Positions 4,819 to 31,154 of a stretch of 64,000 nucleotides of DNA are shown here, one piece after another. Position numbers and translations under genes: made by a program. Source of the DNA: an uncultured Myxococcales bacterium (GTDB lineage: Bacteria > Myxococcota_A > Polyangia > JAAYKL01); NCBI GenBank assembly GCA_964530995.1, contig CAZHCG010000001.1:14942-78941 (forward strand), read 5' to 3'. Each line of letters starts with the position of its first letter. The stretch's first letter is position 1. Below the pieces are notes generated by a model. It was not told where the DNA came from, made no database searches, and saw only the letters and a list, made by a program, of their open reading frames with translations.

Positions 4819-4854
4819 AACGATGAAACCCACCGTTCGAAGGAGAACCAAGAG

Positions 4855-10418: not shown

Positions 10419-11188
10419 GAGTGCAGAAATGCGCTGAGACGGCGTTTGCTATCATCGACTGCGACTGCGACCCACAGCAGGACATGATTCAACGCCAGAT
10501 AAAGTTTCAAAAGCGCGTCGGAACCTGGGACGACTCCATCAAGGATTACGGCCCAAATCCGAAGTGTGATCCACGTAAGGTGGTGTGGATGCTCGACCTT
10601 GCCCTGCAGGAGGCCAGCGAAGCGTGGGACCTAGTCGAGGGCGGCTGGAAGGGCCACAAGCTCAACCCTGACCCGATGGACGACGGCGAGGTCCTCATGG
10701 AGCTCGTAGACGTGGCACACTACGTCTGGAACGCCTACGCCTTCGCCGGCGGGCAGCCACATCCGGACCTCGTCGCCGCCGCAGTGTGCGCATGCCGCCA
10801 GAACCTGCAGCTTCCCACGCTCAATATGTTCCTGGCGTGGCAGAAGGGCACCATGCTCTGGTCCGGTGGCAACAGCGAAGACATGGAGTTCAAGTACGGC
10901 TATCACGAATGGGCGCACGGTACGGATGCCGAGAAGGCGGTGGCCTCGCGCATCAACTGCCTGCGCGCTCAGATCGCCGGAGTGGCCGAGACTTACCGCT
11001 CTTCAATGGTCGGGTTCAGAGACCGCCTCGACAAGTACCCTGTCGCGCCTGGATTCGTGTTCGACGAGATCGTTCCTCACATGTATGCCGCTGCCGCCGC
11101 GATTCCAGGGTGTGACGAGCAGACCTTTTACTCCGCGTTCGTGCACAAGAACGACATCAACCACGGGAGGCAAGACGATGGGTACTGA
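10415..11188 (+). CDS. MazG-like all-alpha nucleoside triphosphate pyrophosphohydrolase (dUTPase/dCTPase family)
   Basis: EExxE-type helices LALQEASEAWDLVEGG and ELVDVAHYVWNAYAF. Confidence 0.65.
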   Translation: MRVQKCAETAFAIIDCDCDPQQDMIQRQIKFQKRVGTWDDSIKDYGPNPKCDPRKVVWMLDLALQEASEAWDLVEGGWKGHKLNPDPMDDGEVLMELVDVAHYVWNAYAFAGGQPHPDLVAAAVCACRQNLQLPTLNMFLAWQKGTMLWSGGNSEDMEFKYGYHEWAHGTDAEKAVASRINCLRAQIAGVAETYRSSMVGFRDRLDKYPVAPGFVFDEIVPHMYAAAAAIPGCDEQTFYSAFVHKNDINHGRQDDGY

Positions 11189-12410
11189 GGGGTACAGGGC
11201 GCTCGGCAATGAGGAACAGCTCGAGCAGATCGGCGTCAACATGGCGACGGCAGACAAATTCGATGCCGTAGGCGCGTGCATCTTCGCTGGAGGATTCAGC
11301 TTCGGCATGGAGCAGGCCGGATTCGACGTGGCCGGACATTTCGAATTCCCTGGGCTCGACCTAGGAGCCGATGTGTCGCGTCAACGCTGGCCTGTATTCA
11401 TTGGGTCGCTCGAGGAGTGGGTAGCCCCGTTCGGCAATGGCATGGACCAGCCGCACGTCCTGTTCATGAACCCACCGTGTGTCGCATACGCCGGAACGGG
11501 CAAGCACCAGGGTACATCAGACGACCGCATGTGCTACCTGCGATGGTGCGTCGAGTGGGCGATGCGCGTGCAACCGGAGGTGTGGGCGTGGGAACTCGTG
11601 CCAGGCATCTACGGCAAAGACAGGTCGTGGCTCGAGGCCATGACGTTCAGGGCTGGCAGGCTCGGCTACAAGTGCTGGGCGTTTCTGACCAGCTCGGCAC
11701 TGCACGGTGGGTACATGGACAGGCGCCGGTTCCACTTCGTGGCATCCAGAGTCGAGCTGGATTTCGAGGCCTCGTACGCCGCGGACTGGGACAGCCACAA
11801 GGGCGTCCTCACGCTCGGCGACGCCCTGGCGTCCGTCAGCCACGCGAGGGAGATGCATGGGCCGCTACCGAACGACAAGAACACCTACCACGGCGCCTTC
11901 GCGGACATCATCCCGTACTGCGCCCCGGGCATGCACCTCGGCAACCTGCCCGATGAGATCATGCACGAGCACTATCGCCCACGTGGCCGCCCATGGTCTG
12001 GCTCCGGGCGACCCGGGTTTTCGCACACTCGTGGCCGACTCGATCGTCCCAGCCCTAACGTGCTGGGAGGGCATACCATATTCCACCCCGTCGAAGACCG
12101 CTACCTGACCCCACGCGAGAAGGCTACGATCATGGGGTTCCCCACCGATTACGCCTTCAGCCGCGGCAGCAAGGCGTACCAGGAGATCGGACGCGGGCTG
12201 TGCACTCACAACGCGAGGTTCCTAGGCGTTGCCATCATGGACGGACTGAAGGCCGGACAGCCGGCAGATGTGGATCGCAAGCTGCACGCCGTGGACTGGC
12301 GCAGCAGGGCGAAGAAGCTCAATATGTCCATGACCCGCGAGGAACTGTTCGAGTGGTACCGAGGACGCCACAGAGAGGACCCGCCGGAGTCATACGGCAT
12401 GCGCCGATGA
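11178..12410 (+). CDS. DNA cytosine-C5 methyltransferase-fold protein (motif IV NPPC, catalytic Cys present)
   Basis: Motif I IFAGGFSFGMEQAGF; motif IV FMNPPCVAY; ENV-like WELVPGI; motif VIII-like GGYMDRRRFHFVAS. Confidence 0.8.
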   Translation: MGTEGYRALGNEEQLEQIGVNMATADKFDAVGACIFAGGFSFGMEQAGFDVAGHFEFPGLDLGADVSRQRWPVFIGSLEEWVAPFGNGMDQPHVLFMNPPCVAYAGTGKHQGTSDDRMCYLRWCVEWAMRVQPEVWAWELVPGIYGKDRSWLEAMTFRAGRLGYKCWAFLTSSALHGGYMDRRRFHFVASRVELDFEASYAADWDSHKGVLTLGDALASVSHAREMHGPLPNDKNTYHGAFADIIPYCAPGMHLGNLPDEIMHEHYRPRGRPWSGSGRPGFSHTRGRLDRPSPNVLGGHTIFHPVEDRYLTPREKATIMGFPTDYAFSRGSKAYQEIGRGLCTHNARFLGVAIMDGLKAGQPADVDRKLHAVDWRSRAKKLNMSMTREELFEWYRGRHREDPPESYGMRR

Positions 12411-12478: not shown

Positions 12479-14329
12479 ATGCCGAGAAACTACGGGGAGC
12501 CAAGACTTGCGCTCGATGAGATCAAGCGCAGGATTGGCGAGAGTGAGAACCTGACCGCGCTGGGAGCCTGCGTCTTCGCGGGCGGCTTCAGCTTCGGGAT
12601 GGAGGAGGCCGGCTTCGACGTCGTCGGCCACCTGGAACTGCCGGACCTGGACGTCGGAGCTGGGACCGCCAGCCAGCGATGGCCAGTGGCTGTGGCGCCG
12701 CTCGACGACGCGTACGAGCACAAGAACCGGCACGGCAACCACACGACGTGGATGAACGCCGTGGACGAGCTGCTCGAGGAGGAGCTCGTGCCCGACGTCC
12801 TCCACATGAACCCGCCCTACTCGGCGTTCGCGCAGACCGGACTGCAGCGCGGGCTGTCCGATCCGGTCATGTGCTACCTGGAGTACTGCGTGCACCGCCT
12901 GGCGCTTCGGCTGAAGCCCAAGGTGTTCGTCTGGGAGCTCGTGCCCGGCATCTGGGACCGCGAGCCGCAGTTCATCAACTCGATGGCAGCTGCCGCCGCG
13001 GAGCATGGGTACAGGACCTACTCGTTCCTGACCACCGCCGCGCTTCACGGCGGGTTCCAGAACCGCAACCGCTTCCACTTCATCGCCAGCAAGTACGCGC
13101 TGGACTTCGAGGGAGTGTACGAGAGGGAGCCCGCCGACCGCAAGGCCTGCCGGACGCTGGGCGACGTGCTCCAGATCGTGGACGACGCTCAGGCGGAGTT
13201 GGGACGGCTCCCGAACCACGAGGCGGACTACCAGTCCACCGGCGCACTGGACGCCATCCTTCCGTTCGTGCCGCCTGGCGGGTACCTCGGAGACGTGCCT
13301 GACCCCGTGCTCTACGAGCACTACAGGCCGAACGGTCAGCCGTGGAAGGGCACCGGTCGCCCCGGCGCGACGCGCGTGCGTGGGCGCATGGACCGCACCT
13401 GTCCGGTCATCATCGGCGGCGCCAGCATCGTCCACCCGGAGAAGGACCGCTGGCTGACCGTCAGGGAGTGCGCCGCGGCGCAGGGATTCCCGATGGACTA
13501 CGAGTTCCCCAACGGTGGCAACGGCTACGCCGAGGTCGGCAAGGGCCTCTGCACGCACAACGCCGCCTTCGTGGGACGGGTCATCTGGGATGCCCTGGCG
13601 AACAAGACGGACGCCGAGCCCAACGTCGTCGCTGAGCTGATCGACTGGCGCAAGCGCACCAGCGTGCCGAAGATGACGCCGAGCATCGAAGAGCGCCGGG
13701 CGTGGTTCAAGGAGAAGCACCCCGACCTTCCCATCGAGTACGCCGAACGCAAGAAGAGCGCCAAGAAGGGCGGCAAGAAGCGCTCTCGCAAGCAGGCCAC
13801 GTGCATCGCAGTCCCAGCGTACGACGGCGGCGAGAAGAGCGCGCGTGTCATGCGCATGCTGCGGCTCTGCGGCATCACGGCGATCGTCCCGCCGGACAAC
13901 GACCCCGCCGGCCGAGTGGCCGCGTTCCAGGGCAGCTCGCTGGCGCTCCTCATCGCGGAGGACCAGGCGGCCGCCTTCCAGGCGTTCATGGACGTCGGCA
14001 CGGCGCTGGGAGCCAGCAAGCCGGTCCTGACGATGTTCCCCGACGGAGTGCCCACTCCGCCCGGAGTGACCCCCATCCCGGACGAGGCTGACGCCGCGTT
14101 CGTGGTCAAGTCCATCGTGGAGAGGTCCGGAATGAACGTCGCTGACGTGGTCCAAGCGGTCATCAACCGCCTGGCCGGAGACGCCGCGTCCCTCACCACC
14201 ATCCTTAACATCGCCCTGGAGATGATCCCGGACGACGACTACGGAGAGGACGAGGTCAGCGAGGAAGACCTCGAGGACGAGGACGAGGAGAACCAGGACG
14301 CCTACGAGGTCACCGACGACGAGGACTAG
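12479..14329 (+). CDS. paralogous C5-methyltransferase-fold protein with motif IV NPPY (Cys replaced by Tyr) and a long acidic C-terminal extension
   Basis: VFAGGFSFGMEEAGF; HMNPPYSAF; WELVPGI; canonical QxRxR as FQNRNRFHFIAS; collinear with the 11178..12410 product through the target-recognition region (YEHYRPNGQPWKGTGRPG…GLCTHNAAF). Confidence 0.8.
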   Translation: MPRNYGEPRLALDEIKRRIGESENLTALGACVFAGGFSFGMEEAGFDVVGHLELPDLDVGAGTASQRWPVAVAPLDDAYEHKNRHGNHTTWMNAVDELLEEELVPDVLHMNPPYSAFAQTGLQRGLSDPVMCYLEYCVHRLALRLKPKVFVWELVPGIWDREPQFINSMAAAAAEHGYRTYSFLTTAALHGGFQNRNRFHFIASKYALDFEGVYEREPADRKACRTLGDVLQIVDDAQAELGRLPNHEADYQSTGALDAILPFVPPGGYLGDVPDPVLYEHYRPNGQPWKGTGRPGATRVRGRMDRTCPVIIGGASIVHPEKDRWLTVRECAAAQGFPMDYEFPNGGNGYAEVGKGLCTHNAAFVGRVIWDALANKTDAEPNVVAELIDWRKRTSVPKMTPSIEERRAWFKEKHPDLPIEYAERKKSAKKGGKKRSRKQATCIAVPAYDGGEKSARVMRMLRLCGITAIVPPDNDPAGRVAAFQGSSLALLIAEDQAAAFQAFMDVGTALGASKPVLTMFPDGVPTPPGVTPIPDEADAAFVVKSIVERSGMNVADVVQAVINRLAGDAASLTTILNIALEMIPDDDYGEDEVSEEDLEDEDEENQDAYEVTDDED

Positions 14330-16724: not shown

Positions 16725-17105
16725 ATGGACGTCTGGAACGACCAGATCGTCATACAGGGGCTCACCGCGGCATACGGCACCGGAGTCCCTCTCGACACCA
16801 TGCCCATCTACGGCGACGTGCGCCGCATGTCCGTCACTCGCCTAGGCTCCAGCAGCGGCGACATCACTGTGGAGGTATCAGCCAATAAGGACTTCACCGA
16901 CATCCTGATGGAGGTCGAATTTCAGGGCATGAACGGCGCGGGGGCGTCCAACGTGTGGGGGTGCGGATACAAGCCGACCTTCAACGCGCCTAACGGCCTG
17001 TACGTGCGGGCCAAGGACACAGCAGACGCTGGTGACGACATCTCGGTGAAGATCTCCGGCGAGGCTGGCGAGGGTGCGGGTCAGTACAGGGGGATCGGCA
17101 AATGA
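16725..17105 (+). CDS. hypothetical protein
   Basis: Ribosome-binding site GGATAGGG; ATG. Confidence 0.5.
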   Translation: MDVWNDQIVIQGLTAAYGTGVPLDTMPIYGDVRRMSVTRLGSSSGDITVEVSANKDFTDILMEVEFQGMNGAGASNVWGCGYKPTFNAPNGLYVRAKDTADAGDDISVKISGEAGEGAGQYRGIGK

Positions 17106-17440
17106 GCACCGGCGACGTCGTAGTCCTCAAGCCGCCCCCGGGGTCCTGTCCCGGCGGAGGAGGCGCGCCGACTCCGATGGACCTCAGCGTGTTCCTGGAG
17201 ATCATGCTTCAGTGGACGAAGGGCACCCTGTCCAAGGAGTTCACGTACACCGGCCTAGACCTGACGCGCATCAGCTATTTCGACGTGGACGGCGGCACGG
17301 AGCTCTACCGCGTGGAGTTCAGCTACGACGGCAGCGGCTTCCTCGACACTGAGGTCGCAACCAGGCTGGCCGACTCCGCGGCTCAGACGAAGACCTACAC
17401 TCACGCCAGCGGTGTGGTGACGAAGGTGGTAGTCACGTGA
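17102..17440 (+). CDS. hypothetical protein
   Basis: ATGA overlap with the previous gene. Confidence 0.5.
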   Translation: MSTGDVVVLKPPPGSCPGGGGAPTPMDLSVFLEIMLQWTKGTLSKEFTYTGLDLTRISYFDVDGGTELYRVEFSYDGSGFLDTEVATRLADSAAQTKTYTHASGVVTKVVVT

Positions 17441-17946
17441 GGACGACGCCAGCCACCGACGGGAAGAAGCACGCGGGCTCCAACCCGCTGCCACACGACC
17501 ACCACAACCGACCGGAGTCGTTCTCGATCAGCAGCACCGGCACACAGAGCCTGCCGCCCGGTACCACGTACGACCTCGACATCGACCTCGGGCGCACGGG
17601 GTACACCTACGGCAGGGTGTACCTGGAGGGCCCACGCACGATGTCCGGATCAGGGGTGCTGTGGCAGGAGTGCGCCGAGGTGGTCGTCACTACGGACTCC
17701 GCGGACGCCAGGTCCCACAGCGTTAGGGACTCGAACTTCAAGAAGGTGTACGCCGGCCACTACTCGAAGCCGCAGGGCGACGCGTGGCTCAGCCACAAGA
17801 TCTTCGACTCCGCCACCGGACTGACACAAAGGTACATCGCCCTGCTGGACGCATGGATCACCGGCAGCACACTGCGGCTCAGGTTCCACAACTACTTTGG
17901 CGGCTCCGCGTTCCTGTGGGTCGAGGGGCAGGCGGTGATGCGATGA
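17437..17946 (+). CDS. member A of a tandem three-gene paralog family (HDHH motif)
   Basis: GTGA overlap start; N-terminal HDHHNRPESF; C-terminal LDAWITGSTLRLRFHNY. Confidence 0.55.
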   Translation: MRTTPATDGKKHAGSNPLPHDHHNRPESFSISSTGTQSLPPGTTYDLDIDLGRTGYTYGRVYLEGPRTMSGSGVLWQECAEVVVTTDSADARSHSVRDSNFKKVYAGHYSKPQGDAWLSHKIFDSATGLTQRYIALLDAWITGSTLRLRFHNYFGGSAFLWVEGQAVMR

Positions 17947-18431
17947 GGACGTCGGTCAAAAGGAACACGACGGACCACGCCGACATCCTGGTCCAGACGG
18001 AGCACGACCACCACCCACGCGGTCAGGAGTTTCGCATCATCATCAACTCGACGTCCATCGCGCCGGGCGCCTACGAGCACCGCACCGCGCTGGGAAGGTC
18101 GGGACATCAGACGTCCCGAGGCATTCTGCGCGGCTACAAGCAAATGTCGGTTCAAGGGCATAATGGCCTCTTCTTCGTCGGAGGGCCGAGCTCGGGACAG
18201 TGCTCCGGGATCGGCATGGAACCGTACGGAGGCGGCGGATACTACTCGGCGTACATGGGCGGGTACTCGCGCCTGCACGGCGACTCGTTCCTGAGCAGAT
18301 CGTGGATGTTCGGCCCGAGCATCTACCTCCGTGACGCGTACATCGATGACGATGAATTCGTCCTCGAGTTCTACAACCAGGCCGCCTCAAACAGGAATCT
18401 CAGCTGCTACGGATCGGTGGCAGTCAAGTGA
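17943..18431 (+). CDS. member B of the tandem paralog family
   Basis: ATGA overlap; HDHHPRGQEF…; C-terminal VLEFYNQAASNRNL. Confidence 0.55.
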   Translation: MRTSVKRNTTDHADILVQTEHDHHPRGQEFRIIINSTSIAPGAYEHRTALGRSGHQTSRGILRGYKQMSVQGHNGLFFVGGPSSGQCSGIGMEPYGGGGYYSAYMGGYSRLHGDSFLSRSWMFGPSIYLRDAYIDDDEFVLEFYNQAASNRNLSCYGSVAVK

Positions 18432-18949
18432 GGACCCAGAGCCACAGGATGCACCCGGGCGGCCACGCCGGTCTGGTCAACGTCAACGCGAACGACCACC
18501 ACGAGCAGCCCACATTCGTGGAGTTCAGCGACACCACGACTGTCATCGCCCCAATGCCATTCGGCCCAGGAACCATTGACATCATCCTGCCGTGGGCGGC
18601 TGACGTGGTGCTGTTCGACCTGCGCTCCGTCAGGACCGTGGGCGAAGGGTCGCTCAAGGCTGGGGTCACCGGCATCACCGGCAGGTCCCAGTACTTCGAC
18701 GCCACTTGCGCGTCCATCGGCGGCAGAGGGACTACAGCGGCTACTGCCTACGGAGCGATATATAGCAAGGCCGCCTCGGCGCTGAACCTATCCCACAAAG
18801 TGTTCTCCTCAAGCGGCGCGGACGTCAGCCTGACGGACGCCTGGATCACGACCAGCGGGCCAAACACCGTCCTCAGGCTCGAGTTCACGAACTACAGCGC
18901 CGGCAACCGGACCCTAAACGTGTGGGGGACCGTCGAGGTGTTGGGATGA
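18428..18949 (+). CDS. member C of the tandem paralog family
   Basis: NDHHEQPTF…; C-terminal LTDAWITTSGPNTVLRLEFTNYSAGNRTL. Confidence 0.55.
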   Translation: MRTQSHRMHPGGHAGLVNVNANDHHEQPTFVEFSDTTTVIAPMPFGPGTIDIILPWAADVVLFDLRSVRTVGEGSLKAGVTGITGRSQYFDATCASIGGRGTTAATAYGAIYSKAASALNLSHKVFSSSGADVSLTDAWITTSGPNTVLRLEFTNYSAGNRTLNVWGTVEVLG

Positions 18950-20202
18950 CGCTACGAGTGCTGGCCATCTGCCAGGAGGACCCCGAGCACATCCTCGGCG
19001 GGATGGGCCGGCACGTCGGCGAGCTGTACGCGACGATGGCGCGCAGGTCTGATGTGGAAGTGGACCTGCTGACATGCGGCGTGGGCGACGAGCCCACGAC
19101 CTGGCGCGGATTCACCAAGTGGCCCGGCGACAAGCTCGTGGCGTGGAAGCCGCGCAGTCCTGACATGTCGAGCCTACTGATGAGCGACATCCAGATGCTG
19201 CGCCAGCTCACGCAGATGCTGGCCGACGGGCGCCGCTGGGACGTCGTGCACGTCCACGAGTGGAACGCCCTCCAGGTCGCCAGGGCCGCCCGGGACGCGC
19301 TTCGAGTGCCTCTGGTCGGCACGATGCACCTCTGCATCACGTACCTCATGGAGGACGGCGGTGGAATCAGCGGCGAGATGAAGGATCAGGAGATGTACCT
19401 GATGCAGATGGAGGGCCACCTCGCCGTCGACACCGACGAGTTCATCATCTGCTCGGACGCCTACCGTCGGCTCACAAGCCGGCTGTTCATGACGGACCGC
19501 GACACCAACGTGATCTACAACGGCATCGATACGCAGAGGTGGAGCCCGGAGCTGGGGGACGCCAAGAGCGCTCTCAGACGGCACGGACTGCCGTGGGATC
19601 GACCCATCTGCCTGTTCGTCGGGCGCATCGCCGAGATGAAGGGCATCCGCACGATCATGGACGCCGTCGAGCGCGAGGACAACGGCTGGTTCTACGCCCT
19701 CGCCGGCGAGATCAACGCCAACACCAAGGCGGCCCGTGACTCGTGGGACGTCACCCAGCGGCTCGAGCGCATGAACGAGGAGCTCCCGGACCGATTCAAG
19801 TGGGTCGGATTCCAGCAGGGCCAAGCGCTCAAGGACCTGTACGCCGCGGCGACGGTCGGCCTGATGCCCAGCCACCACGAGCCGTTCGGCCTGGTCGCCC
19901 TCGAGCACATGGCGATGGGCGTGCCGCTCATCAGCACGGAAGTCGACGGCCTTGGCGAGGTGGTCATGGACGAGGCCGGCGTCGAGTACGCGATGATAGT
20001 GCCGCCGCGCAGCGTTGAAGACATCCTGGAGGCCCTGGAGATCCTCAGCGACCCGAAGCCGCGCGAGGAGCTCAGGCGGCTGGGCCTTCAGCGCGCCAGT
20101 CAGTTCGACTGGCACGAAATCGCGGCTCAGACGGTTGACGTTTACCGACGAGCCGTACTGAATCACAGCCGCCCGCAGGAGGCCGCATGTTCATCATACT
20201 GA
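18946..20202 (+). CDS. GT4-family (GT-B fold) glycosyltransferase
   Basis: N-terminal GGMGRHV; C-terminal signature HHEPFGLVALEHMAMGVPLIST. Confidence 0.85.
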   Translation: MTLRVLAICQEDPEHILGGMGRHVGELYATMARRSDVEVDLLTCGVGDEPTTWRGFTKWPGDKLVAWKPRSPDMSSLLMSDIQMLRQLTQMLADGRRWDVVHVHEWNALQVARAARDALRVPLVGTMHLCITYLMEDGGGISGEMKDQEMYLMQMEGHLAVDTDEFIICSDAYRRLTSRLFMTDRDTNVIYNGIDTQRWSPELGDAKSALRRHGLPWDRPICLFVGRIAEMKGIRTIMDAVEREDNGWFYALAGEINANTKAARDSWDVTQRLERMNEELPDRFKWVGFQQGQALKDLYAAATVGLMPSHHEPFGLVALEHMAMGVPLISTEVDGLGEVVMDEAGVEYAMIVPPRSVEDILEALEILSDPKPREELRRLGLQRASQFDWHEIAAQTVDVYRRAVLNHSRPQEAACSSY

Positions 20203-20681
20203 CCGAGCCCGTGCAGGTGCCGGACCTGAACCGCATCTCCATCGCCAACATCGAGATCGAGCACAACCCTCAGCGCGGGCGCGCGTGGGCCGAGATCTGG
20301 TGCGTGTGGGGCTACCTCGAGGAGCCGGGCAACCCCATGTCATTCGTCGAGTGCAAGCACCCCGTCACCGGTGAGGACGCGACCCTCTTCAAGATCGAGG
20401 ACGGCCACCACCCCATCGCCCACGACATGGCGCTGGGCAAGTGCCCCACCTGCGGGGCGTGGCATCAGCGGATCTCGAGCGTCTGCGGGGTGGACGGGTG
20501 CGATGGGGACGTGGCGCCCTACGACGGGTTCACCCGGGTCATGGCCGAGATGACCGCGGATGGGGAAGACGTCGGCACGGCGGTTCAGCGGATCGCGTAC
20601 ACCTTCCTCCTGACCGAGGTGATCCCCGATCATAACACGTGGGAGCTGCGCCCCCTGGTGGCGGGCACGCCGGAGGTGTAG
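20187..20681 (+). CDS. hypothetical Cys/His-containing protein
   Basis: Overlaps the previous stop; CKHP…CPTCGAWH…CGVDGC. Confidence 0.5.
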   Translation: MFIILTEPVQVPDLNRISIANIEIEHNPQRGRAWAEIWCVWGYLEEPGNPMSFVECKHPVTGEDATLFKIEDGHHPIAHDMALGKCPTCGAWHQRISSVCGVDGCDGDVAPYDGFTRVMAEMTADGEDVGTAVQRIAYTFLLTEVIPDHNTWELRPLVAGTPEV

Positions 20682-20685
20682 GGCG

Positions 20686-22041
20686 ATGAACGGCAGCAGC
20701 GTCAGAATCATAGACGGAGACACCGAGCGCATCGAGACGCAGGCGCTCGACGATGCAGAGGACCCGCTCACCGGGGTCACGGACCTGCTCATCTCCATCC
20801 GTCGGGTGAGCGACGACTTCTACTACGACTTCAACGACAACACATTCAAGTCCACTGGGTGGACCACCAGGCGTCAGGCTATGACGGAGCTCGACGCCAC
20901 CAACGACCCGGGCCTGTACTACTACGACTTCGACACCTCGGCCATCACCAACGAGGCGGCAGACGACACCTACATGGTGCGCGTCGAGCAGTCCCCCGGA
21001 ACCACCGTGGAGAACCTGCCGCAGAGCGGGGAGATCAAGGTCGACCAGTGGCCGAAGGATATTATCGACGACGTTGCCACCGTAGACGGTGTCGTCGACG
21101 ACATCCTGGTAGACACCAACGAGATGCAGAGCAAGCTGCCCACGAACAACATCATGGGGAGCAGCGACAAGGCGGACCATGACGGCGAGATCGGCGACAT
21201 CCTCACTGACACCGCGGCGATGCAGCCGCTGGTCAGCGCCAACCTGGACGACTCGATCAGCAACGTCAGAGCTGACATCGCGGCTCTCAACGACATCGAT
21301 CAGGCGGGCGTCCAGGCGGCCCTGACGGCCCAGGGGTACACCTCGGTCAGGGCCGGGCTCCTGGACAACCTCGACCAGGCCATCAGCTCCTTGAACGACC
21401 TGTCCATCGCAGACGTGCAGACCGCGCTGACGAACCAGGGGTACACGGCTCTTCGGGCGGCGGCCCTGGACAACCTAGACGCCGCAATCTCGACGGTCCT
21501 CGGGGCCATCGGCGCTCTCAACGACCTGAGCCAGGCCGACGTGCAGTCCGCCATGACCTCGCAGGGCTACACGACCATCAGGGCGGCCCTGCTGGACAAC
21601 CTGGACGCGGCCATCACGGCAATCCCGGCGGCGGTTGACGTCGTCCTGTCGGCGGCTCACGGCAGCGGGAGCTGGGAGGACGCCGGGGCGATGGCCGCCG
21701 ACGTCGTGATCGAGTACATCAACGGCAACTTCAAGGTCGGCGTGACGATGATCGAGCATGGGGAGGTTGTCACGGACTTCGACTCCGTGGCCGCCGAGAT
21801 CCATGAGGTCGATGGCGCCGCGACCCTAGTGGTGGACCTCGGCACGCAGAACAGCGACAACGCCGACGGCACCTTCATCTTCACCGACACCCCGACCCTG
21901 GACTACGGGGAGGTGTACGCACTCGTCATTGTGGCAACCCGTGGCCTCGACACCTGGAACCTCCACTTCGGGTTCCCGGCAGAGCGCCTGGCCGACCAGT
22001 TCCGTGTGACGAGGAACCTGGTGGTAGGCACGGGGGTGTAG
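20686..22041 (+). CDS. repeat-containing protein, probably structural, with three 35-aa tandem repeats
   Basis: Repeats LND(I/L)xxAxVQxA(L/M)TxQGYTxxRAxLLDNLDxAI(S/T), each occurring three times. Confidence 0.55.
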   Translation: MNGSSVRIIDGDTERIETQALDDAEDPLTGVTDLLISIRRVSDDFYYDFNDNTFKSTGWTTRRQAMTELDATNDPGLYYYDFDTSAITNEAADDTYMVRVEQSPGTTVENLPQSGEIKVDQWPKDIIDDVATVDGVVDDILVDTNEMQSKLPTNNIMGSSDKADHDGEIGDILTDTAAMQPLVSANLDDSISNVRADIAALNDIDQAGVQAALTAQGYTSVRAGLLDNLDQAISSLNDLSIADVQTALTNQGYTALRAAALDNLDAAISTVLGAIGALNDLSQADVQSAMTSQGYTTIRAALLDNLDAAITAIPAAVDVVLSAAHGSGSWEDAGAMAADVVIEYINGNFKVGVTMIEHGEVVTDFDSVAAEIHEVDGAATLVVDLGTQNSDNADGTFIFTDTPTLDYGEVYALVIVATRGLDTWNLHFGFPAERLADQFRVTRNLVVGTGV

Positions 22042-22042
22042 C

Positions 22043-22561
22043 GTGTACGTCGTCGGTTTCAGCAAGAAGATGACGTTCCTCGCCAGAGCGATCATGTGGT
22101 TCACGAAGAGCCACACGAGCCACACCTACGTCCGCCAGGGCGACACGGAGACCGGGTATGTCTTCGAGTCCGACGAGCGTGGGGCCAACAACCAGTGGGC
22201 CCCCGTGTTCTACCGCGAGGGCAGCGGCAACATCATCGTCGAGGAGTACCTCATCGAACTGCCGGACGAGCTACTCAACGACGGATGGGACGTTACACAG
22301 CGACAGCACCTGAATCAAAAGTACGGATACCTACAGCTCGTCGGAGACGCCATTTCCATCCTGGTCGAGTGGGCATTCAAGAAGAAGGTCAAGAATCCGT
22401 TCGGCAACGCCTATACCGTCGTGTGCAGTGAACTGGTGCTGGCATTCCTCGTAAACTCAGACATCCCTGGCTTCGCGGACATGGACCCAGAGCTCGTTAG
22501 CCCCGAAGATCTGTTGGAAGTGATTCACACCATGCCGGCCACGTTCCAACGGTTGACTTGA
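22043..22561 (+). CDS. hypothetical protein
   Basis: GTG start; lower-GC codon usage. Confidence 0.45.
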   Translation: MYVVGFSKKMTFLARAIMWFTKSHTSHTYVRQGDTETGYVFESDERGANNQWAPVFYREGSGNIIVEEYLIELPDELLNDGWDVTQRQHLNQKYGYLQLVGDAISILVEWAFKKKVKNPFGNAYTVVCSELVLAFLVNSDIPGFADMDPELVSPEDLLEVIHTMPATFQRLT

Positions 22562-22637
22562 GGCTCGCAGCTCGACGAACTGATAGGGATGGACAGGGTG
22601 CGCGCTACAGGGCAGTATAGGGTGGACGGAGGCGTTG

Positions 22638-24410
22638 ATGTCTGACGACAACCCGGTTGTGACACAGAATCCGAGCATCATCCTCGACAAAGAGGTGATC
22701 GACGTCCCGCTGATGATCGGCGAACTTCCTGGCACGCCGGCTCAGGATACCGATCCTGACGAGATGTTCGGCGGCGGCATGGCCAAGCAGCCCGTGCCTC
22801 CCAAGGAGGCGCTGCGCCTGATGCTTCGATGCGGCGCGCTGATGGCCGTCAGCCACGCCGTGGCTGAGGGGACCGCAGGCTCCGGCTACGACATCATTCC
22901 GCGCACGCGCGGCATTGACGTCGATCATCCGGATCGCTGGCCGGCCGACGTGAATGATCAGTTCCAACGAATCCAGGCGTTCATCCAGACGGCGTTCCAC
23001 GGCGAGCAGGACATGTCACTGCGCACCGGCTTCTACCGAGAGGAGCACGACAGGTTCTCAATCGGCTGGGGAGGCGTCATCGTCCACCGTGGCATCAAGG
23101 ACGCTAACAGCGACCTTCCGCCGCCACCCAAGGGGCTCGGACGGTTCGAGGCGTGCGGCGGGAAGTTCACCAAGCCGGACCGCAAGCCGACGATGGTGCC
23201 CGTGCCCGTGGGATTGGACGACGGCTCCATCGTCTGGGTGGAGGTGCCGCGCTTCTTCCGCCGCATCAGGTACCAGTCCAGCGGCGGCGCGATCATGTGG
23301 TTCAAGGAGTACGGCGACTGGCGCAGCATGGACGCCAAGACGGGAAAGTTCTCGTCCGGCGTCACGCACACCCCACCGACCAAGGAGTGGGCGCACGGTC
23401 GATACACCGGTGGGGCGCTGCCCAAGACCGCCGTTCCGGCAGTCGAGGTTGCCCACTGGGAGACGCCGTTTCCTGGCGTGTACCCGTACGGCGTCAGCGC
23501 GTGGCACGCGGAGATGACGGCCATCAGGTCGTCGCACGAGCACGCCAGCCTGATGCTGGACTACCTCAAGTCCGGATTGCACTCGGTGATCGTTGCCGCG
23601 GCCAACAGGTCATTCGAGTCCGGCACGGCCGACGCCGCCGTGAAGAAGATCGACGAGCTGGGGCGCGGGCGCGAGGGGCTCGGCGCCCTGGTCCTCATCG
23701 AGCTGCAGCCCATCGACAGCAAGCAGACCGGGTACAACTCCATGTTCGATCAGGACAGGACCGGCGACCGCGGGCGGCTGGTGCTGCACGAGCTCCACAC
23801 CAAGCTGCCGTCCGAGCTGATGAATAACACGTTCAGCGAGGCGCTGTCCACCAGGATCTCCAACGCAGAACGCATCCCCGGGTTGCTGCTCGGCCGCTCA
23901 GAGTCCTACAACTTCGCCACTGCTGCCGCGGCTTGGATGACGGCCAACCGCTTGCGGTTCAGGCCGCACCACATGACCCGCGAGTCATTCCTCGACGCGC
24001 TGCTTATCGAGATGGGCATCACGCACTGGCGGCTTGCCGTGCGTTCGCCCGAGTGGGACGAGCAGGAGAAGATCTCCAGCGTGGTCCAGTCCATCGGCCA
24101 GATGGGCGGTATCAGCGTGAATCGAGCGCTGCAGCTGCTCGGCCGCGCGGTCGGCATCGAGACTACTCCGATCACCGAGTGGTGGGGCGACATCCCACTC
24201 GTGCTAGTTACCAAGATCCTCGAGGCCGAAGACCCGCAGGCCATGCTCGACGCGCTCAAGCTGCCCGGCGAGCCTCAGATCCCGATGGACCGGTCCAGCG
24301 TGTCAGATCCGGTGTCCAAGGCCATCGACACTTTGAACGCTGCGGCGGAGGAGGCCGCGGGTTCGCGTTCGGGCGATGGGGCGCGACCCCCTGAGGGTGG
24401 CACCGAGTAG
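22638..24410 (+). CDS. large hypothetical protein, possibly a portal or morphogenesis protein
   Basis: GGACGGAGG ribosome-binding site; roughly 590 aa; no definitive motif. Confidence 0.5.
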   Translation: MSDDNPVVTQNPSIILDKEVIDVPLMIGELPGTPAQDTDPDEMFGGGMAKQPVPPKEALRLMLRCGALMAVSHAVAEGTAGSGYDIIPRTRGIDVDHPDRWPADVNDQFQRIQAFIQTAFHGEQDMSLRTGFYREEHDRFSIGWGGVIVHRGIKDANSDLPPPPKGLGRFEACGGKFTKPDRKPTMVPVPVGLDDGSIVWVEVPRFFRRIRYQSSGGAIMWFKEYGDWRSMDAKTGKFSSGVTHTPPTKEWAHGRYTGGALPKTAVPAVEVAHWETPFPGVYPYGVSAWHAEMTAIRSSHEHASLMLDYLKSGLHSVIVAAANRSFESGTADAAVKKIDELGRGREGLGALVLIELQPIDSKQTGYNSMFDQDRTGDRGRLVLHELHTKLPSELMNNTFSEALSTRISNAERIPGLLLGRSESYNFATAAAAWMTANRLRFRPHHMTRESFLDALLIEMGITHWRLAVRSPEWDEQEKISSVVQSIGQMGGISVNRALQLLGRAVGIETTPITEWWGDIPLVLVTKILEAEDPQAMLDALKLPGEPQIPMDRSSVSDPVSKAIDTLNAAAEEAAGSRSGDGARPPEGGTE

Positions 24411-24469: not shown

Positions 24470-25387
24470 ATGGGATCACAGAAGATGATGGCATGCATCA
24501 GGACTGGGCGCGTCTTCGCCGCAGACCAGGTGCCGGACGACACCGACGGGCTGATGCTCATGCCCGTGGAGGAGGCCGAGCCGTACTACGAGCAGTGGAC
24601 TCGCTCGGCGGCCATTCCGCATGAGCGCACGGACGATGGAAGATTCGACCGCTCCCATCTGTCCACCGAGCACGCGTACCGACTCGGTCGCGATTACTTC
24701 GCGCACTGCCTGAGGTACGGGTGGCCGATGACGCTGGTGCGCCAGCACGTCGGCCCCGGCGGCCGCATCATGGACGTGGGATGCGGCAAGGAGATCCCGT
24801 TCTTCAGGGCCCTGACGTGCGACCACTCCGCCGTGACCTACTACAAGCCGGCGTTGTACGTCGCGGCTGACCTGAACGACATCAAGTACCGGCCTCGCAT
24901 CACCGGGTGCGAGACCCACATCCTCGACCACTGCAACGCCGTTGAGGACCTGAGTCGAGTCCCGAACGAGCCGTTCGACCTCGTGGTATCCTTCGAGGTG
25001 CTCGAGCACATGGACAAGGACGACGGCCTGAGGTTTCTCGAGGCGCTGGTGGGATTCGCTCGGCGCAAGCCTGAACGAGAAGGCAAGCCCGCGATCATCG
25101 CCCTGTCCACCCCGGTCAACGGCGGCACCATCGCCAAGAACCACATCTACGAGTGGGGCCGCTCCGAGCTGCGCCGCGCGTGGTGGAAGCTCGGCTGCGA
25201 CGTCGTGCAGGAGTACGGCACCTTCGCCAACCTGCGCGACATCACTCGAATGCTTACCAGCACCGAACTCGAGGTGTGGAACTCACTCGTGGACTACCAC
25301 AGCCCGCACACCCTGACGAGCATCTTCGCCACCAAGCATCCCGAAGCCGCCAGGAACATCGCCTGGCACGTCGAGGTGAGGCCGTGA
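24470..25387 (+). CDS. class I SAM-dependent methyltransferase
   Basis: Motif I RIMDVGCGKE; post-I FDLVVSFEVLEHM. Confidence 0.8.
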   Translation: MGSQKMMACIRTGRVFAADQVPDDTDGLMLMPVEEAEPYYEQWTRSAAIPHERTDDGRFDRSHLSTEHAYRLGRDYFAHCLRYGWPMTLVRQHVGPGGRIMDVGCGKEIPFFRALTCDHSAVTYYKPALYVAADLNDIKYRPRITGCETHILDHCNAVEDLSRVPNEPFDLVVSFEVLEHMDKDDGLRFLEALVGFARRKPEREGKPAIIALSTPVNGGTIAKNHIYEWGRSELRRAWWKLGCDVVQEYGTFANLRDITRMLTSTELEVWNSLVDYHSPHTLTSIFATKHPEAARNIAWHVEVRP

Positions 25388-26262
25388 TCATAGTGCTCGA
25401 GGGCGCAGATGGCGTGGGAAAGACCACCCTCGCCGACGCCATCGAGTCTCTGAATCCCGGCAACACGGTGAGATTCAACCATGGCCCGCCTCCAGACGGC
25501 GAGTCCGCGGCGATGCACTACGAGGAGTCCATACGCGACCTCGTCAGAGCCTCTGACGCTGGAACGGTAGTCGTGTGCGACAGGCTACACGTGGGTGAGC
25601 TGGTGTATGGCGCGGTGGTGCGAGACGATCCAGGCATCACCGTAGGCGAGGCATGCGTGTTCGACCTGACGCTGGAAGGCGCCGGCGCCTTGTTAGTTCA
25701 TTGCTCCGTGCCCAAGGCCGTCGCATTTCAGCGCATGATCGGTCGTGACGGCGGCAAGCCCGACGAGAAGAGCGGCGCGAAGACGTCTCACTGGCGCGCG
25801 TTGGCCGCCGGCTTTCGGCGCTACACCGGCGGAGTACTCACCGGGCACTGGCGCGACGCAGACCTGACGGGATACCCCCTTCAGGCCGCCACTGAACTGT
25901 CCATCGAGGCGCGCATGCGCCATCGGTTCGGGCCACCGGTCCCGAAGTTCCAGCTGGCTCTGCCCGACCCAGAGCCAGGCATCAGCAACACGTCGTGGAT
26001 CTGCCACCAGATGCGAATTCTTGGACTGCACCGTCAGTTCGAGTTTGCGACACCTGGCCACGTTAGAAACAATGTCCCAATCATCGCGTTGGGTGACGCC
26101 AGCGCGTGGCTGGACGTCGCTGCCATCGCCTACGAACGCCGAGTCCCCCACCGCGAAGACGAAGAGGACTATGACGAAGAGTCGGCGTGGCGCAGTGAGG
26201 TCTTTGACGCCGTGAAATGCGTGAAACGAGAGATGGGCCATGAAGAAAGGTGCACCAGATGA
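25384..26262 (+). CDS. P-loop nucleotide or nucleoside-monophosphate kinase
   Basis: GTGA overlap start; P-loop VLEGADGVGKTTLA. Confidence 0.65.
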   Translation: MIIVLEGADGVGKTTLADAIESLNPGNTVRFNHGPPPDGESAAMHYEESIRDLVRASDAGTVVVCDRLHVGELVYGAVVRDDPGITVGEACVFDLTLEGAGALLVHCSVPKAVAFQRMIGRDGGKPDEKSGAKTSHWRALAAGFRRYTGGVLTGHWRDADLTGYPLQAATELSIEARMRHRFGPPVPKFQLALPDPEPGISNTSWICHQMRILGLHRQFEFATPGHVRNNVPIIALGDASAWLDVAAIAYERRVPHREDEEDYDEESAWRSEVFDAVKCVKREMGHEERCTR

Positions 26263-26540
26263 AGTTCGATCTCAGCGTGATCGAGGAGATGCACGAGGCG
26301 CATCAGGCGACGTTCAAGCGCCTGTGCGACAAGGCGGAGCTGGAGGTCAAGAAGACCTCGGTGACCTTCTCGGAGGAGCAGATCAAGAAGGCGTCGGAGG
26401 ACCCGGGGTTCGCCAAGGGGTTCCCGATGTTCGCGGCGGCCTACGGGAAGGCCTCCAAGAGCTCGAAGAAGCCCGACAAGAAGTCCTCCAGCGACAAGTC
26501 CGTCAAGAAGGACAAGACCGAGGACAAGCCGCAGGACTAG
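26259..26540 (+). CDS. hypothetical K-rich small protein
   Basis: GAAAGG ribosome-binding site, then ATG; C-terminal KKPDKKSSSDKSVKKDK. Confidence 0.4.
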   Translation: MKFDLSVIEEMHEAHQATFKRLCDKAELEVKKTSVTFSEEQIKKASEDPGFAKGFPMFAAAYGKASKSSKKPDKKSSSDKSVKKDKTEDKPQD

Positions 26541-26626
26541 TCGGCGAGTTCGCCACAGGCGACGACCTCTGCAGGGCCGCACTGCGGTTCTGCCTAGCAC
26601 AGGAGTCTGAGGCCGCCCCGAGAGGC

Positions 26627-27559
26627 ATGGCGGTCAAGGAGTCGCTGCTCCCATCCGTCATGGTCCTGAAGGACGTGCACAGGCCGTTCTTCCTGTCACC
26701 GACGCGCAAGGCCAACTACCGATTCGGCCTGGCAGAGGCCTGCTGGATTCTCAGCGGCTCCGACGACGCCCAGCTCATCGGCAAGTTCAACAAGAACATG
26801 CTGAAGTTCAGCGACGACGGCAAGACGCTGTGGGGCGCCTACGGCCCGAGGCTCATGGGTCAAATGCCCCACGTCCTGAACAGCCTCAGGCGGGACGGGC
26901 ACAGCAGGCAGGCGGTGAGCTGCCCGTGGAGACCGCAGGTTGGGCCACTCGAGCTGTATGGCATGGACATCGACTGGCGTGGAGACCACAGAGACAGTCT
27001 CGGACTCACACTCGACCCCAACAATCAAAATGCCGAGTGGGACGGCGACTCCTGGCGCTCGAAGGACATCCCGTGCACGATCTTCATGCACTTCCAGATG
27101 CGCGATGGTAAGCTGTGCATGACGGCGTACATGAGGTCCAACGACGCGTACCTCGGCGTGCCGTACGACATCCTATCGTTCACCACCGTGCAGCGGGCCA
27201 TCGCGTCCGCCCTCGGCGCGGAGCCCGGGTGGTACTGCCACGTGGCGAGCAACCTGCACCTATACGAGCGCAACTTCGAGGACGCGGAGCGCGCCCTGAA
27301 AGACACCAGCGGCGTGGACAATCAGGTCGAACTTCCGCCCATGGGACGGGCGCTTTACGGAACGCTAGCGCCGCAGATCTCTCGTGTCTTCGAAGACATC
27401 TTCGATGAGACCCTGGGCGCGTGTGAGCACCACGTCGACTGGATCAAGCCATTCGTCGCAGCCATGCACCGCCGTCCTGACGTGTGGGACGGATGGCCGA
27501 GGCTGCTGCGTGCGACAGGGCGAAAGCCCCGCGTGGTGGCTACGAGCACAATCACGTGA
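26627..27559 (+). CDS. thymidylate-synthase-family pyrimidine C5 hydroxymethylase/methylase with Asn-to-Asp substitution at the ThyA Asn177 position, which in ThyA-family enzymes determines substrate pyrimidine (dCMP-type)
   Basis: GAGAGG ribosome-binding site; SRQAVSCPWRP; catalytic IPCTIFMHFQ; RSNDAYLGVPYDILSF aligns with ThyA RSCDVFLGLPFNIASY, placing D where ThyA has N. Confidence 0.75.
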   Translation: MAVKESLLPSVMVLKDVHRPFFLSPTRKANYRFGLAEACWILSGSDDAQLIGKFNKNMLKFSDDGKTLWGAYGPRLMGQMPHVLNSLRRDGHSRQAVSCPWRPQVGPLELYGMDIDWRGDHRDSLGLTLDPNNQNAEWDGDSWRSKDIPCTIFMHFQMRDGKLCMTAYMRSNDAYLGVPYDILSFTTVQRAIASALGAEPGWYCHVASNLHLYERNFEDAERALKDTSGVDNQVELPPMGRALYGTLAPQISRVFEDIFDETLGACEHHVDWIKPFVAAMHRRPDVWDGWPRLLRATGRKPRVVATSTIT

Positions 27560-30702: not shown

Positions 30703-31154
30703 GGCTTGTTGTCCTCGGAATCGGCGAGTGGGCGGCACGGGCTCATCCCGGACTGGTGACTGACCGCGACCTAGAGCGGGTGCGTGAGTCCAACAATGTG
30801 CTGTTGGCCACCGCGCGTCGCCTGTTGGTGATCGCTCAACGCGCTGGAATGCCAAAGTCCGAGGTCGAATCGTTGATCAGTTCGGCGAAGCCGTCGCCAG
30901 CGGTAGGCCTGATGCAGGCCAAGGGCCAGCAGGACGATGGCTCGAAGGTCACGGGACGATTCTCGCAGATGGAGGCGATAGCCGCCGTGGACGCGGCCCT
31001 GGCGCACCCCAGGACGGCTCAGAGAGTGCCCGCGTGGTTCAAGCACGACTGGTGGCCCGGCGTCCTGAGGCGCGTGGCGTCCGGCGAGTGCATGTCCGAT
31101 CGTGAGGTGGACGTCGCGGTTTACGTGGCCGCGGATGCGACGGAGGAGAGATGA
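30672..31154 (+). CDS. hypothetical protein
   Basis: ATG at 30672 overlaps the previous gene by 31 nt; its stop overlaps the next ATG. Confidence 0.45.
   Translation: MASGQDIPDLRLVVLGIGEWAARAHPGLVTDRDLERVRESNNVLLATARRLLVIAQRAGMPKSEVESLISSAKPSPAVGLMQAKGQQDDGSKVTGRFSQMEAIAAVDAALAHPRTAQRVPAWFKHDWWPGVLRRVASGECMSDREVDVAVYVAADATEER

What the first reader, a model, noticed from the sequence alone, without database searches (positions are those of the whole stretch)
18946..20202. GT4 glycosyltransferase among early/middle genes, a candidate DNA or virion glycosylation enzyme
A canonical GT-B/GT4 enzyme (EX7E-type HHEPFGLVALEHMAMGVP) sits far from the tail-fibre genes. In a genome that appears to make hydroxymethylated pyrimidine it is a candidate DNA (5hm-base) glycosyltransferase analogous to T4 alpha/beta-gt, though it belongs to a different GT family. 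Alternatively it glycosylates capsid proteins (as in some mycobacteriophages) or host surface polymers to exclude superinfection.
Basis: inference. Interest (0 to 1): 0.6.

Follow-up and report, generated by a model that had tools for sequence, protein, structure and literature searches.

The report
Phage glycosyltransferase inside a virion-appendage gene cassette
The gene is a real, catalytically intact sugar-transferring enzyme, but it travels everywhere with three small beta-sandwich proteins and a fibre gene inside phage head/neck gene modules, so it more likely sugar-coats a virion part than the phage DNA.

Summary
The ORF at 18946-20202 (+) is a genuine GT-B/GT4 glycosyltransferase. Pfam gives Glycos_transf_1 at 4e-25. 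The AlphaFold model has pLDDT 94.5, and the best fold match is MshA (TM 0.81). The EX7E, Arg/Lys and Gly-loop residues are invariant in 40 homologues.

The gene is the fourth member of a tightly packed cassette: pA-pB-pC (three paralogous ~165-aa beta-sandwich proteins), GT4, a Cys-rich 164-aa protein, then a fibre-like protein. This order is the same in every one of about 40 metagenomic phage loci that carry a relative. In those loci the cassette lies between the major capsid protein and the head-tail adaptor and sheath genes.

Two close replication-module relatives are collinear with the window over more than 22 kb. They have the complete C5-MTase ... TS-homologue-PolA region but lack the 5.9-kb cassette block. 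The TS homologue does look like a dCMP hydroxymethylase, so the hydroxymethyl-base premise holds. However, it co-occurs with a SAM-MTase and a dCMP deaminase in other phages, never with this GT.

GT4-like DNA glycosyltransferases do exist (RB69, DLP3), so DNA glycosylation is not excluded. Virion-protein glycosylation is the better-supported reading, at about 0.5.

The parts
18946..20202 (+). GT4 (GT-B, retaining-type) glycosyltransferase, 418 aa; EX7E motif at aa 312-320
   Evidence: Pfam matches. NCBIfam best matches are the GlgM-type glgA_Coryne (7.5e-38) and MshA (1e-32), both below their equivalog cut-offs. Model pLDDT 94.5. Foldseek hits MshA/SPS/GlgM/BshA. 40-sequence alignment with invariant G21, H128, R227, K232, E312, E320.
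17437..17946 (+). pA, first of three paralogous ~165-aa beta-sandwich proteins (invariant MR..H..DHH N-terminus and a Y-x3-Y-S-K/R loop)
   Evidence: Paralogy and orthology alignment A1. Present upstream of the GT in every relative locus.
17943..18431 (+). pB, second paralogue
   Evidence: the ATGA start-stop overlap with pA
18428..18949 (+). pC, third paralogue; its stop overlaps the GT start (ATGA)
   Evidence: AlphaFold model pLDDT 71, a beta-sandwich with a disordered conserved loop at 99-117. Weak Foldseek similarity to phage tail-fibre, tailspike and T4 gp9 domains and to viral jelly rolls.
20187..20681 (+). d1, acidic 164-aa protein with a CxxC...C...C zinc-ribbon-like motif; always directly downstream of the GT
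   Evidence: Conserved position in relatives. Only sub-threshold Zn-ribbon hits. Its start overlaps the GT end by 16 nt.
20686..22041 (+). Fibre-like protein, 451 aa. The N-terminal ~120 aa are conserved (50-63% id). The rest is variable in length (130-1025 aa in relatives). Three QGYT...LDNLD repeats lie at aa 216-310. pI 4.05.
22043..22561 (+). 172-aa protein ending the inserted block; membership of the cassette is uncertain
   Evidence: Only PHROG 1128 at 4e-8. It is inside the block that is absent from L121/L122. It is not clustered with neighbours in relatives.
16725..17440 (+). Two small ORFs (126 and 112 aa) that open the inserted block; not conserved in other cassette loci
22635..24410 (+). 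Portal protein (context; not part of the cassette)
   Evidence: 23% identical to the L037/L015 proteins. The L037 protein matches Pfam Phage_portal and PHROG 12. It directly follows the AAA gene in L121/L122.
24470..27559 (+). Separate nucleotide/DNA-modification module (context): SAM-MTase 24470-25387, thymidylate-kinase-like P-loop protein 25384-26262, dCMP-hydroxymethylase-like TS homologue 26627-27559

Best explanation
The GT4 is the enzymatic member of a self-contained, horizontally mobile virion-appendage cassette. The order is pA-pB-pC (three paralogous beta-sandwich proteins), GT4, a small Cys-rich protein, then a fibre with a conserved N-terminal anchor and a variable distal part.

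In most carriers the cassette sits between the major capsid protein and the head-tail adaptor, which is the place where head-decoration and neck-fibre genes normally lie. I infer the following. The enzyme is expressed with these proteins through translationally coupled, overlapping genes. It uses a common host NDP-sugar. It O-glycosylates one of the cassette proteins, either pA/pB/pC (for example at the invariant Y-x3-Y-S-K/R motif in a predicted flexible loop) or the fibre. The virion would then carry a glycan-decorated appendage.

Shown: enzyme class and intact catalytic residues; cassette conservation and position; independence from the TS-homologue module in the sampled relatives. Inferred: the acceptor, the donor, and the location of pA/pB/pC on the virion.
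For: (1) Catalytic competence. G21, H128, R227, K232, E312 and E320 are invariant across 40 homologues with 51% mean column identity. The model is high-confidence and superposes on MshA.

(2) Cassette conservation. pA-pB-pC-GT4-d1 occurs in the same order in all loci with enough flank: 39 loci, and 33 motif-found loci plus one GTDB contig. No family member was found outside the cassette.

(3) Position. The order TerL-portal-protease-MCP-small genes-pABC-GT4-d1-fibre-head-tail adaptor-...-sheath is seen in L037. The same layout occurs in L015, L018, L026, L038, L039 and L002.

(4) Coupling. There are four consecutive ATGA/GTGA start-stop overlaps from s2 to the GT.

(5) Module behaviour. Cassette proteins are 45-58% identical to relatives, whereas the portal is only 23% identical. 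MCP, TerL, adaptor and sheath of those relatives have no hit in the window at E<1e-4. Carriers span 43-69% GC.

(6) Many invariant N-domain (acceptor-side) residues (D81, D99, H102, H104, W106, H128, E156) point to one conserved acceptor, as a cassette protein would be.

(7) The family is phage-restricted. Among 185,579 species genomes there is one true member, on a phage-like contig.

(8) The fibre has a conserved N-terminus and a variable remainder. pC has weak fold similarity to fibre, tailspike and gp9 domains.

(9) Phage virion glycosylation has precedent in mycobacteriophages (Freeman et al. 2023, as cited in PMC12619734).
Against: - No direct evidence identifies any acceptor.
- The fold matches of pC are weak (TM about 0.3, best E 7e-4 to 1e-2), so 'structural protein' rests mainly on gene position.
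- The nearest solved GT4s all use small soluble acceptors (inositol-P, fructose-6-P, glucose-1-P, malate), not proteins.
- Validated phage DNA glycosyltransferases have the same structural neighbours.
- This particular phage does carry a dCMP-hydroxymethylase-like gene 6.4 kb away.
- Genome-wide absence of hydroxylated-base pathways in the other cassette carriers could not be verified. Only +/-10 kb flanks and top-N lists were accessible.
Confidence: 0.5

Rival explanations
1. DNA glycosyltransferase. The phage replaces dC by 5-hydroxymethyl-dC (TS homologue + kinase + dCTPase-like + deaminase), and the GT4 transfers a hexose from a UDP-sugar onto the 5hmC hydroxyl in DNA late in infection. 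This would be analogous to T4 alpha/beta-gt and to the GT-B arabinosyltransferases of RB69 and DLP3.
For: - The TS homologue is MilA-like and has the N177D cytosine-specificity change, D at the L143 position as in MilA, and D169 retained (so not the 5-hydroxy-dCMP type).
- An adjacent thymidylate-kinase-like protein is weakly similar to RB69 gp45.
- A dCMP deaminase and a dUTPase_2-like gene are present.
- Validated DNA GTs of RB69, DLP3 and RL38J1 have MshA, SPS and BshA as best structural matches, as does this GT.
- Some of those DNA GTs (RB69 gp3, RL38J1 gp151/gp237) are also encoded away from the TS cluster.
- The protein matches Pfam GT4-conflict above its cut-off.
Against: - There is no sequence similarity to RB69 gp3. 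No RB69, DLP3, RL38J1 or T4 hit appears in tblastn against 50,697 phage records. No T4 alpha/beta-gt is in the top 50 fold hits.
- In about 40 relatives the GT is never near nucleotide-modification genes; it is always in the structural cassette.
- L121/L122 keep the collinear C5MT...SAM-MT-kinase-TS-PolA region without the cassette, and their contigs lack the family's invariant WDxxHxHEW motif.
- The TS homologue's recurrent partners in 80 other phage loci are the SAM-MTase (48/80) and the dCMP deaminase (60/80), not a GT.
- No contig name or longest-contig length is shared between the GT and TS-homologue hit lists, except the window's own contig.
Confidence: 0.2
2. Metabolic or host-directed enzyme. 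The GT makes a small soluble glycoside or alpha-glucan precursor (GlgM/SPS/MshA-like chemistry), or modifies a host envelope polymer during infection. Its place in the structural module would then be incidental (a moron).
For: The best NCBIfam, PDB and fold matches are GlgM-type 'glgA_Coryne' (7.5e-38), MshA, SPS and BshA, all enzymes with small soluble acceptors. JGI pipelines name relatives 'glycogen synthase' or 'cell wall biosynthesis'.
Against: - All NCBIfam scores are far below the equivalog cut-offs (130 against 302 bits for the best).
- Strict five-gene synteny with translational coupling across phages of 43-69% GC is not how sporadic auxiliary metabolic genes behave.
- The family is absent from cellular genomes; the next best cellular GT4 is 22-27% identical.
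- There are no membrane segments, flippase or Gtr partners, no sugar-nucleotide genes nearby, and no PADLOC match.
Confidence: 0.12
3. The GT-B protein serves mainly as an assembly factor or virion component (scaffold or chaperone for the pABC/fibre complex), with catalysis secondary or lost.
For: Obligate linkage with structural-type genes, and a conserved small Cys-rich partner that could be a chaperone.
Against: All donor-binding and catalytic residues are invariant, which argues for retained enzymatic activity.
Confidence: 0.05

Closest known systems
Mycobacteriophage virion glycosylation systems (Che8-type; Freeman et al. 2023, cited in PMC12619734)
   Same: Phage-encoded glycosyltransferase(s) proposed or shown to decorate virion proteins. 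A lytic-cycle function that is neither DNA nor host-surface modification.
   Different: No sequence relation was tested or found. Here a single GT4 is hard-wired into a five/six-gene cassette with three jelly-roll paralogues and a fibre, inside the head-neck module of myovirus-like phages with very different GC contents. The acceptor is unknown.
GT-B DNA glycosyl/arabinosyltransferases of RB69 (gp3, gp46:47), DLP3 (gp76/77/79) and RL38J1 (gp237) (PMC13326640), and the GT-B DNA GTs of Pyle et al. (bioRxiv 10.1101/2023.12.21.572611)
   Same: GT-B fold with MshA, SPS and BshA as nearest solved structures. Encoded by phages that also carry a MilA-like TS homologue and a thymidylate-kinase-like kinase.
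   Different: No detectable sequence similarity. Not clustered with the TS homologue or with sugar-nucleotide genes. The family's invariant partners are structural-type proteins. The TS homologue here keeps D169, so it is the hydroxymethyl type rather than the 5-hydroxy type.
T4 alpha- and beta-glucosyltransferases (CAZy GT72, GT63)
   Same: GT-B fold, and a phage with a dCMP-hydroxymethylase-like gene.
   Different: Different GT families. No sequence or top-50 fold match. The T4 enzymes are early genes among nucleotide-metabolism genes.
Cellular soluble GT4 enzymes MshA, GlgM, cyanobacterial SPS and BshA
   Same: Best sequence and structure matches (22-26% identity, TM 0.73-0.81). The same Gly loop, His, Arg/Lys and EX7E catalytic set.
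   Different: Far below the equivalog thresholds. A phage-restricted clade. The acceptor-side residues are family-specific (WDxxHxHEW, TMHLC).

Membership tests
CAZy GT4 / Pfam Glycos_transf_1 + Glyco_trans_4 (GT-B, retaining) | Two Rossmann-like domains with the donor site in the C-terminal domain | tested here: met
   Model pLDDT 94.5. Foldseek to MshA 3c4q E 2e-24, TM 0.81. Pfam N- and C-domain models are both above their cut-offs.
CAZy GT4 / Pfam Glycos_transf_1 + Glyco_trans_4 (GT-B, retaining) | EX7E motif plus the Arg/Lys pair that binds the diphosphate, and an N-terminal Gly-rich loop | tested here: met
   E312...E320, R227, K232 and G21 (GGMG) are invariant in 40 homologues. The motif is at nt 19873-19926.
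CAZy GT4 / Pfam Glycos_transf_1 + Glyco_trans_4 (GT-B, retaining) | Retention of anomeric configuration; NDP-sugar donor | not testable with these tools
   Needs an enzymatic assay.
T4-type DNA glucosyltransferases (alpha-gt GT72, beta-gt GT63) | Sequence or close fold membership of those families | tested here: not met
   No such Pfam family among the hits. No T4-like phage hit in tblastn. Not in the top 50 Foldseek PDB hits.
RB69/DLP3-type GT-B DNA glycosyltransferases | GT-B fold whose nearest solved structures are MshA, SPS and BshA | tested here: met
   one search compared with Table 1 of PMC13326640. This feature is shared by many GT4s and is not specific.
RB69/DLP3-type GT-B DNA glycosyltransferases | Homology to a validated member | tested here: not met
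   BLASTP against RB69 gp3 gave no meaningful alignment. No RB69, DLP3 or RL38J1 record in the tblastn hits. gp46:47 and the DLP3 proteins were not compared directly.
RB69/DLP3-type GT-B DNA glycosyltransferases | Gene clustered or co-inherited with a base-hydroxylating TS homologue (and usually a kinase and sugar-nucleotide genes) | tested here: not met
   No TS, kinase or MTase within +/-10 kb in 39 relatives. The collinear relatives L121/L122 have the TS module without the GT. The hit lists share no contig except the window's own. Caveat: whole genomes could not be read.
Phage virion-protein glycosylation systems | GT encoded with, and co-inherited with, virion structural genes | tested here: met
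   The cassette lies between the MCP and the head-tail adaptor/sheath. It is adjacent to a fibre gene and the portal gene in the window.
Phage virion-protein glycosylation systems | Glycan demonstrably attached to a virion protein | not testable with these tools
   Needs mass spectrometry or glycostaining of virions.
dCMP hydroxymethylase (TS-fold) for the neighbouring gene 26627-27559 | Catalytic Cys; Asp instead of Asn177 (cytosine specificity); D169 retained (not a 5-hydroxy-dCMP synthase) | tested here: met
   The protein has DIPCT and MRSNDAYLGVPYD. RB69 gp48 has RSQN, i.e. D169N. The signature is defined in PMC13326640. The product (hydroxymethyl versus methyl) is inferred only from similarity to MilA.

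The most novel reading that the evidence does not exclude
The cassette encodes a portable, glycan-decorated head/neck appendage. A heterotrimer-type adaptor is built from three jelly-roll paralogues, and its invariant, disordered Y-x3-Y-S-K/R loop is O-glycosylated by the dedicated GT4. This adaptor anchors a fibre with a swappable distal part. It would be a virion-glycosylation system hard-wired into the morphogenesis module and exchanged as a unit among uncultivated myovirus-like phages of very different hosts.
Probability: 0.25. Interest if true: 0.7.

Novelty: new variant of a known kind. Interest (0 to 1): 0.45.

Why it matters
Phage glycosyltransferases are usually assigned to DNA protection or lysogenic serotype conversion. 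Virion glycosylation has been demonstrated essentially only in mycobacteriophages.

A phage-restricted GT4 clade that is always co-inherited with a fibre and three paralogous beta-sandwich proteins, across phages of 43-69% GC, would suggest two things. Glycan-decorated virion appendages may be more widespread than thought, and they may be modular. That bears on host recognition, immune or defence evasion, and phage engineering.

The finding is also a caution. A GT4 near a hydroxymethylase gene is not automatically a DNA glycosyltransferase, even though GT4-like DNA GTs exist.

Tried and rejected
- Megablast of 16-26 kb against GenBank phages gave no match. tblastn of pC gave none. TerL gave only about 25% hits to Mu-like and other phages. 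There is therefore no cultured relative.
- The isoelectric point was tested as a discriminator for DNA binding. It is uninformative, because the GT family is acidic (median 5.7) and so are RB69's DNA GTs.
- The promoter/terminator scan of 14-28 kb found nothing above shuffled expectation, so 'early/middle' timing cannot be assessed.
- PADLOC gave no defence-system match for any cassette protein.
- Genome-level co-occurrence could not be settled. A PolA-based search returned only the two collinear relatives. A single-protein TS search found nothing.
- TRF found no DNA-level repeats in the fibre gene; the repeats are visible only at protein level.
- A cupin/RmlC-like sugar-nucleotide enzyme role for pA/pB/pC was considered. 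It was dropped because no such enzyme appeared among the listed fold hits (top 50 of each search), which were viral jelly rolls, lectin-type sandwiches and fibre domains.
Full report
**Observation**

The + strand ORF from the ATG at 18946 to the stop ending at 20202 encodes 418 aa. The public gene call on the source contig (NCBI/Logan, 100.7 kb) uses the same start. It matches both halves of the GT4 architecture: Glyco_trans_4_4 at 4e-21, Glyco_transf_4 at 2e-19, Glycos_transf_1 at 4e-25 and Glyco_trans_1_4 at 6e-22. The quoted motif lies at aa 310-327, nt 19873-19926.

An AlphaFold model built on 40 homologues has pLDDT 94.5. It superposes on MshA, cyanobacterial sucrose-phosphate synthase, GlgM and BshA at E about 1e-24 to 1e-20, with TM up to 0.81. 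These are the same proteins found by sequence. In the 40-sequence alignment (51% mean column identity) the Gly loop (G21), H128, R227, K232, E312 and E320 are invariant. The protein is therefore a real, catalytically intact GT4.

**What surrounds it**

The whole window is a GC-rich (about 63%) phage genome segment with replication and structural genes intermixed. It includes:
- a primase-MCM helicase, two C5 DNA methylases, a PD-(D/E)XK nuclease and an AAA ATPase;
- PolA, a TopoVI-like B+A fusion and an XPD-type helicase;
- TerL, an NAD ligase, RNR and a tape-measure protein.

No cultured phage is related.

Immediately upstream of the GT are three ~165-aa ORFs (17437-17946, 17943-18431, 18428-18949). 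They are paralogues of each other. Each has orthologues in other phages with invariant M1-R2, H12, D-H-H and Y-x3-Y-S residues. The junctions s2/pA/pB/pC/GT are GTGA, ATGA, GTGA and ATGA overlaps. Downstream come:
- a Cys-rich acidic 164-aa protein (d1);
- a 451-aa acidic protein with three QGYT...LDNLD repeats;
- a 172-aa protein;
- the portal homologue at 22635-24410.

**Comparative evidence**

The GT has a large family of metagenomic relatives (47-59% identity) on contigs up to 127-149 kb. I examined several sets of loci:
- 39 loci fetched through the protein;
- 33 found independently with the family-specific WDxxHxHEW motif;
- the single GTDB hit, a phage-like contig binned with a MAG.

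In all of them the order pA-pB-pC-GT4-d1 is invariant wherever the flank is present. No family member was found outside that cassette. The next gene is usually a homologue of the fibre-like protein. Its N-terminal ~120 aa are conserved at 50-63% identity, while its total length ranges from 130 to 1025 aa. That is the signature of an anchored fibre with an exchangeable distal part.

Clustering and annotating the flanks shows a recurrent order. It runs TerL, portal, S78-type protease, a ~500-aa protein, major capsid protein, two or three small genes, pA-pB-pC, GT4, d1, fibre, head-tail adaptor, several genes, then tail sheath. L002 has Mu_F/protease/Phage_capsid upstream and T4 gp19/baseplate downstream. 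The cassette therefore sits in the morphogenesis module, where head-decoration or neck-fibre genes usually lie.

The cassette proteins are 45-58% identical to the window's. The portal is only 23% identical, and the relatives' MCP, TerL, adaptor and sheath do not hit the window at all. Carriers span 43-69% GC. The cassette behaves as a mobile unit.

**Relation to the hydroxymethyl-pyrimidine genes**

The TS homologue at 26627-27559 is closest to the CMP hydroxymethylase MilA (4e-26, against about 1e-13 for ThyA). It has DIPCT and MRSNDAYLGVPYD, i.e. the catalytic Cys, Asp at the N177 position (cytosine specificity) and Asp at the L143 position as in MilA.

The 2026 NAR paper on RB69 and DLP3 defines 5-hydroxy-dCMP synthases by a D169N change. 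RB69 gp48 shows it (RSQN). The window protein keeps D169, so a hydroxymethyl-dCMP product is the best guess. A thymidylate-kinase-like P-loop protein lies next to it and is weakly similar to RB69 gp45. A dCMP deaminase and a dUTPase_2-like protein complete a plausible dC-replacement pathway.

The closest relatives of this region are L041/L121 (108-kb contig) and L042/L122 (92-kb contig). They are collinear with the window for more than 22 kb: dUTPase_2, C5MT, PD-(D/E)XK, AAA, portal, SAM-MTase, kinase, TS, PolA..., deaminase..., TopoVI-like, XPD. They differ in having one C5MT instead of two and in lacking the 5.9-kb block 16725-22561 between AAA and portal. Their contigs were also not hit by the GT motif scan.

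Across 80 other phage loci, the TS homologue's recurrent neighbours are the SAM-MTase (48/80) and the deaminase (60/80), never a GT. Conversely, no relative of the GT has a TS homologue, kinase or MTase within 10 kb. The GT and TS hit lists share neither IMG/VR contig names nor longest-contig lengths, except for the window's own 100,715-bp contig.

This test has limits.

**Interpretation**

The best-supported reading is that the GT4 works on a component of its own cassette, i.e. virion-protein glycosylation. pA/pB/pC or the fibre would be the acceptor.

The pC model is a beta-sandwich (pLDDT 71). Its conserved Y-x3-Y-S-K motif lies in a low-confidence loop at 99-117. Its fold matches are weak (TM about 0.3) but dominated by phage tail-fibre, tailspike and T4 gp9 domains, lectin-type sandwiches and viral jelly rolls. 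The many invariant acceptor-side residues of the GT fit one conserved acceptor. I put this reading at about 0.5. The acceptor, the donor and the virion location are inferred, not shown.

The DNA-glycosyltransferase reading stays alive at about 0.2. Validated GT-B DNA glycosyltransferases of RB69, DLP3 and RL38J1 have the same structural neighbours, and some of them are encoded away from the TS cluster. Against it are the lack of sequence similarity and the comparative genomics above.

A metabolic or host-envelope role (about 0.12) is suggested only by the nature of the nearest cellular enzymes. It fits poorly with obligate synteny and with phage restriction of the family. A purely structural role (about 0.05) is contradicted by the invariant catalytic residues.

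**Novelty**

The enzyme class is known, phage DNA GTs with this fold are known, and phage virion glycosylation is known. What appears undescribed is this phage-restricted GT4 clade locked into a pA-pB-pC-GT4-d1-fibre cassette within morphogenesis modules. I rate it a new variant of a known kind, of moderate interest, pending any biochemical evidence.

Noticed in passing
window 24470-27559 and 31151-31627; loci L041-L120: The MilA-like TS homologue recurs in 80 IMG/VR phage loci together with a class-I SAM methyltransferase (48/80), a dCMP deaminase (60/80) and sometimes the thymidylate-kinase-like P-loop protein (14/80). The conserved SAM-MTase partner suggests a further step on the modified pyrimidine, or a nucleotide methylation, that I could not assign. 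Its only PDB similarity is marginal, to small-RNA 2'-O-methyltransferases.
   Followed up: partly
window 34688-37300 (+): An 870-aa single polypeptide combines a GHKL ATPase (HATPase_c) with a TopoVI-A/Spo11 Toprim domain, i.e. a fused B+A type IIB topoisomerase resembling the 'Topo VIII' type. It is conserved at 49-57% identity in L121/L122. It has no PDB sequence match.
   Followed up: partly
window 16725-22561 versus L121 3594-6537 and L122 3237-6136: A clean 5.9-kb, nine-gene presence/absence polymorphism lies between the AAA ATPase and the portal gene in otherwise collinear genomes. The direction (insertion or deletion) and any boundary repeats were not examined.
   Followed up: partly
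window 10866-12410 and 12479-14329 (+): Two tandem C5 cytosine DNA methyltransferase paralogues (about 44% identical), where the relatives L121/L122 have one. This is odd in a phage that may replace dC by a 5-substituted dC.
   Followed up: no
window 5966-8833 (+): A 955-aa Toprim primase fused to an MCM-type P-loop helicase domain.
   Followed up: no
window 17437-18949 (pA/pB/pC N-termini): M1-R2, H12 and a D-H-H triplet at positions 21-23 are invariant in all three paralogue lineages across phages. This could be a metal site or a processing/recognition signal. It is unexplained.
   Followed up: no
window 15255/15387-16721 (+): The AAA+ ATPase upstream of the block matches PADLOC IetA models (4.8e-14). 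It is conserved next to the portal gene in L121/L122.
   Followed up: no
window 4708-5895 (+): A protein matches Pfam Pam3_Gp34 (2e-21), a family named after cyanophage Pam3.
   Followed up: no
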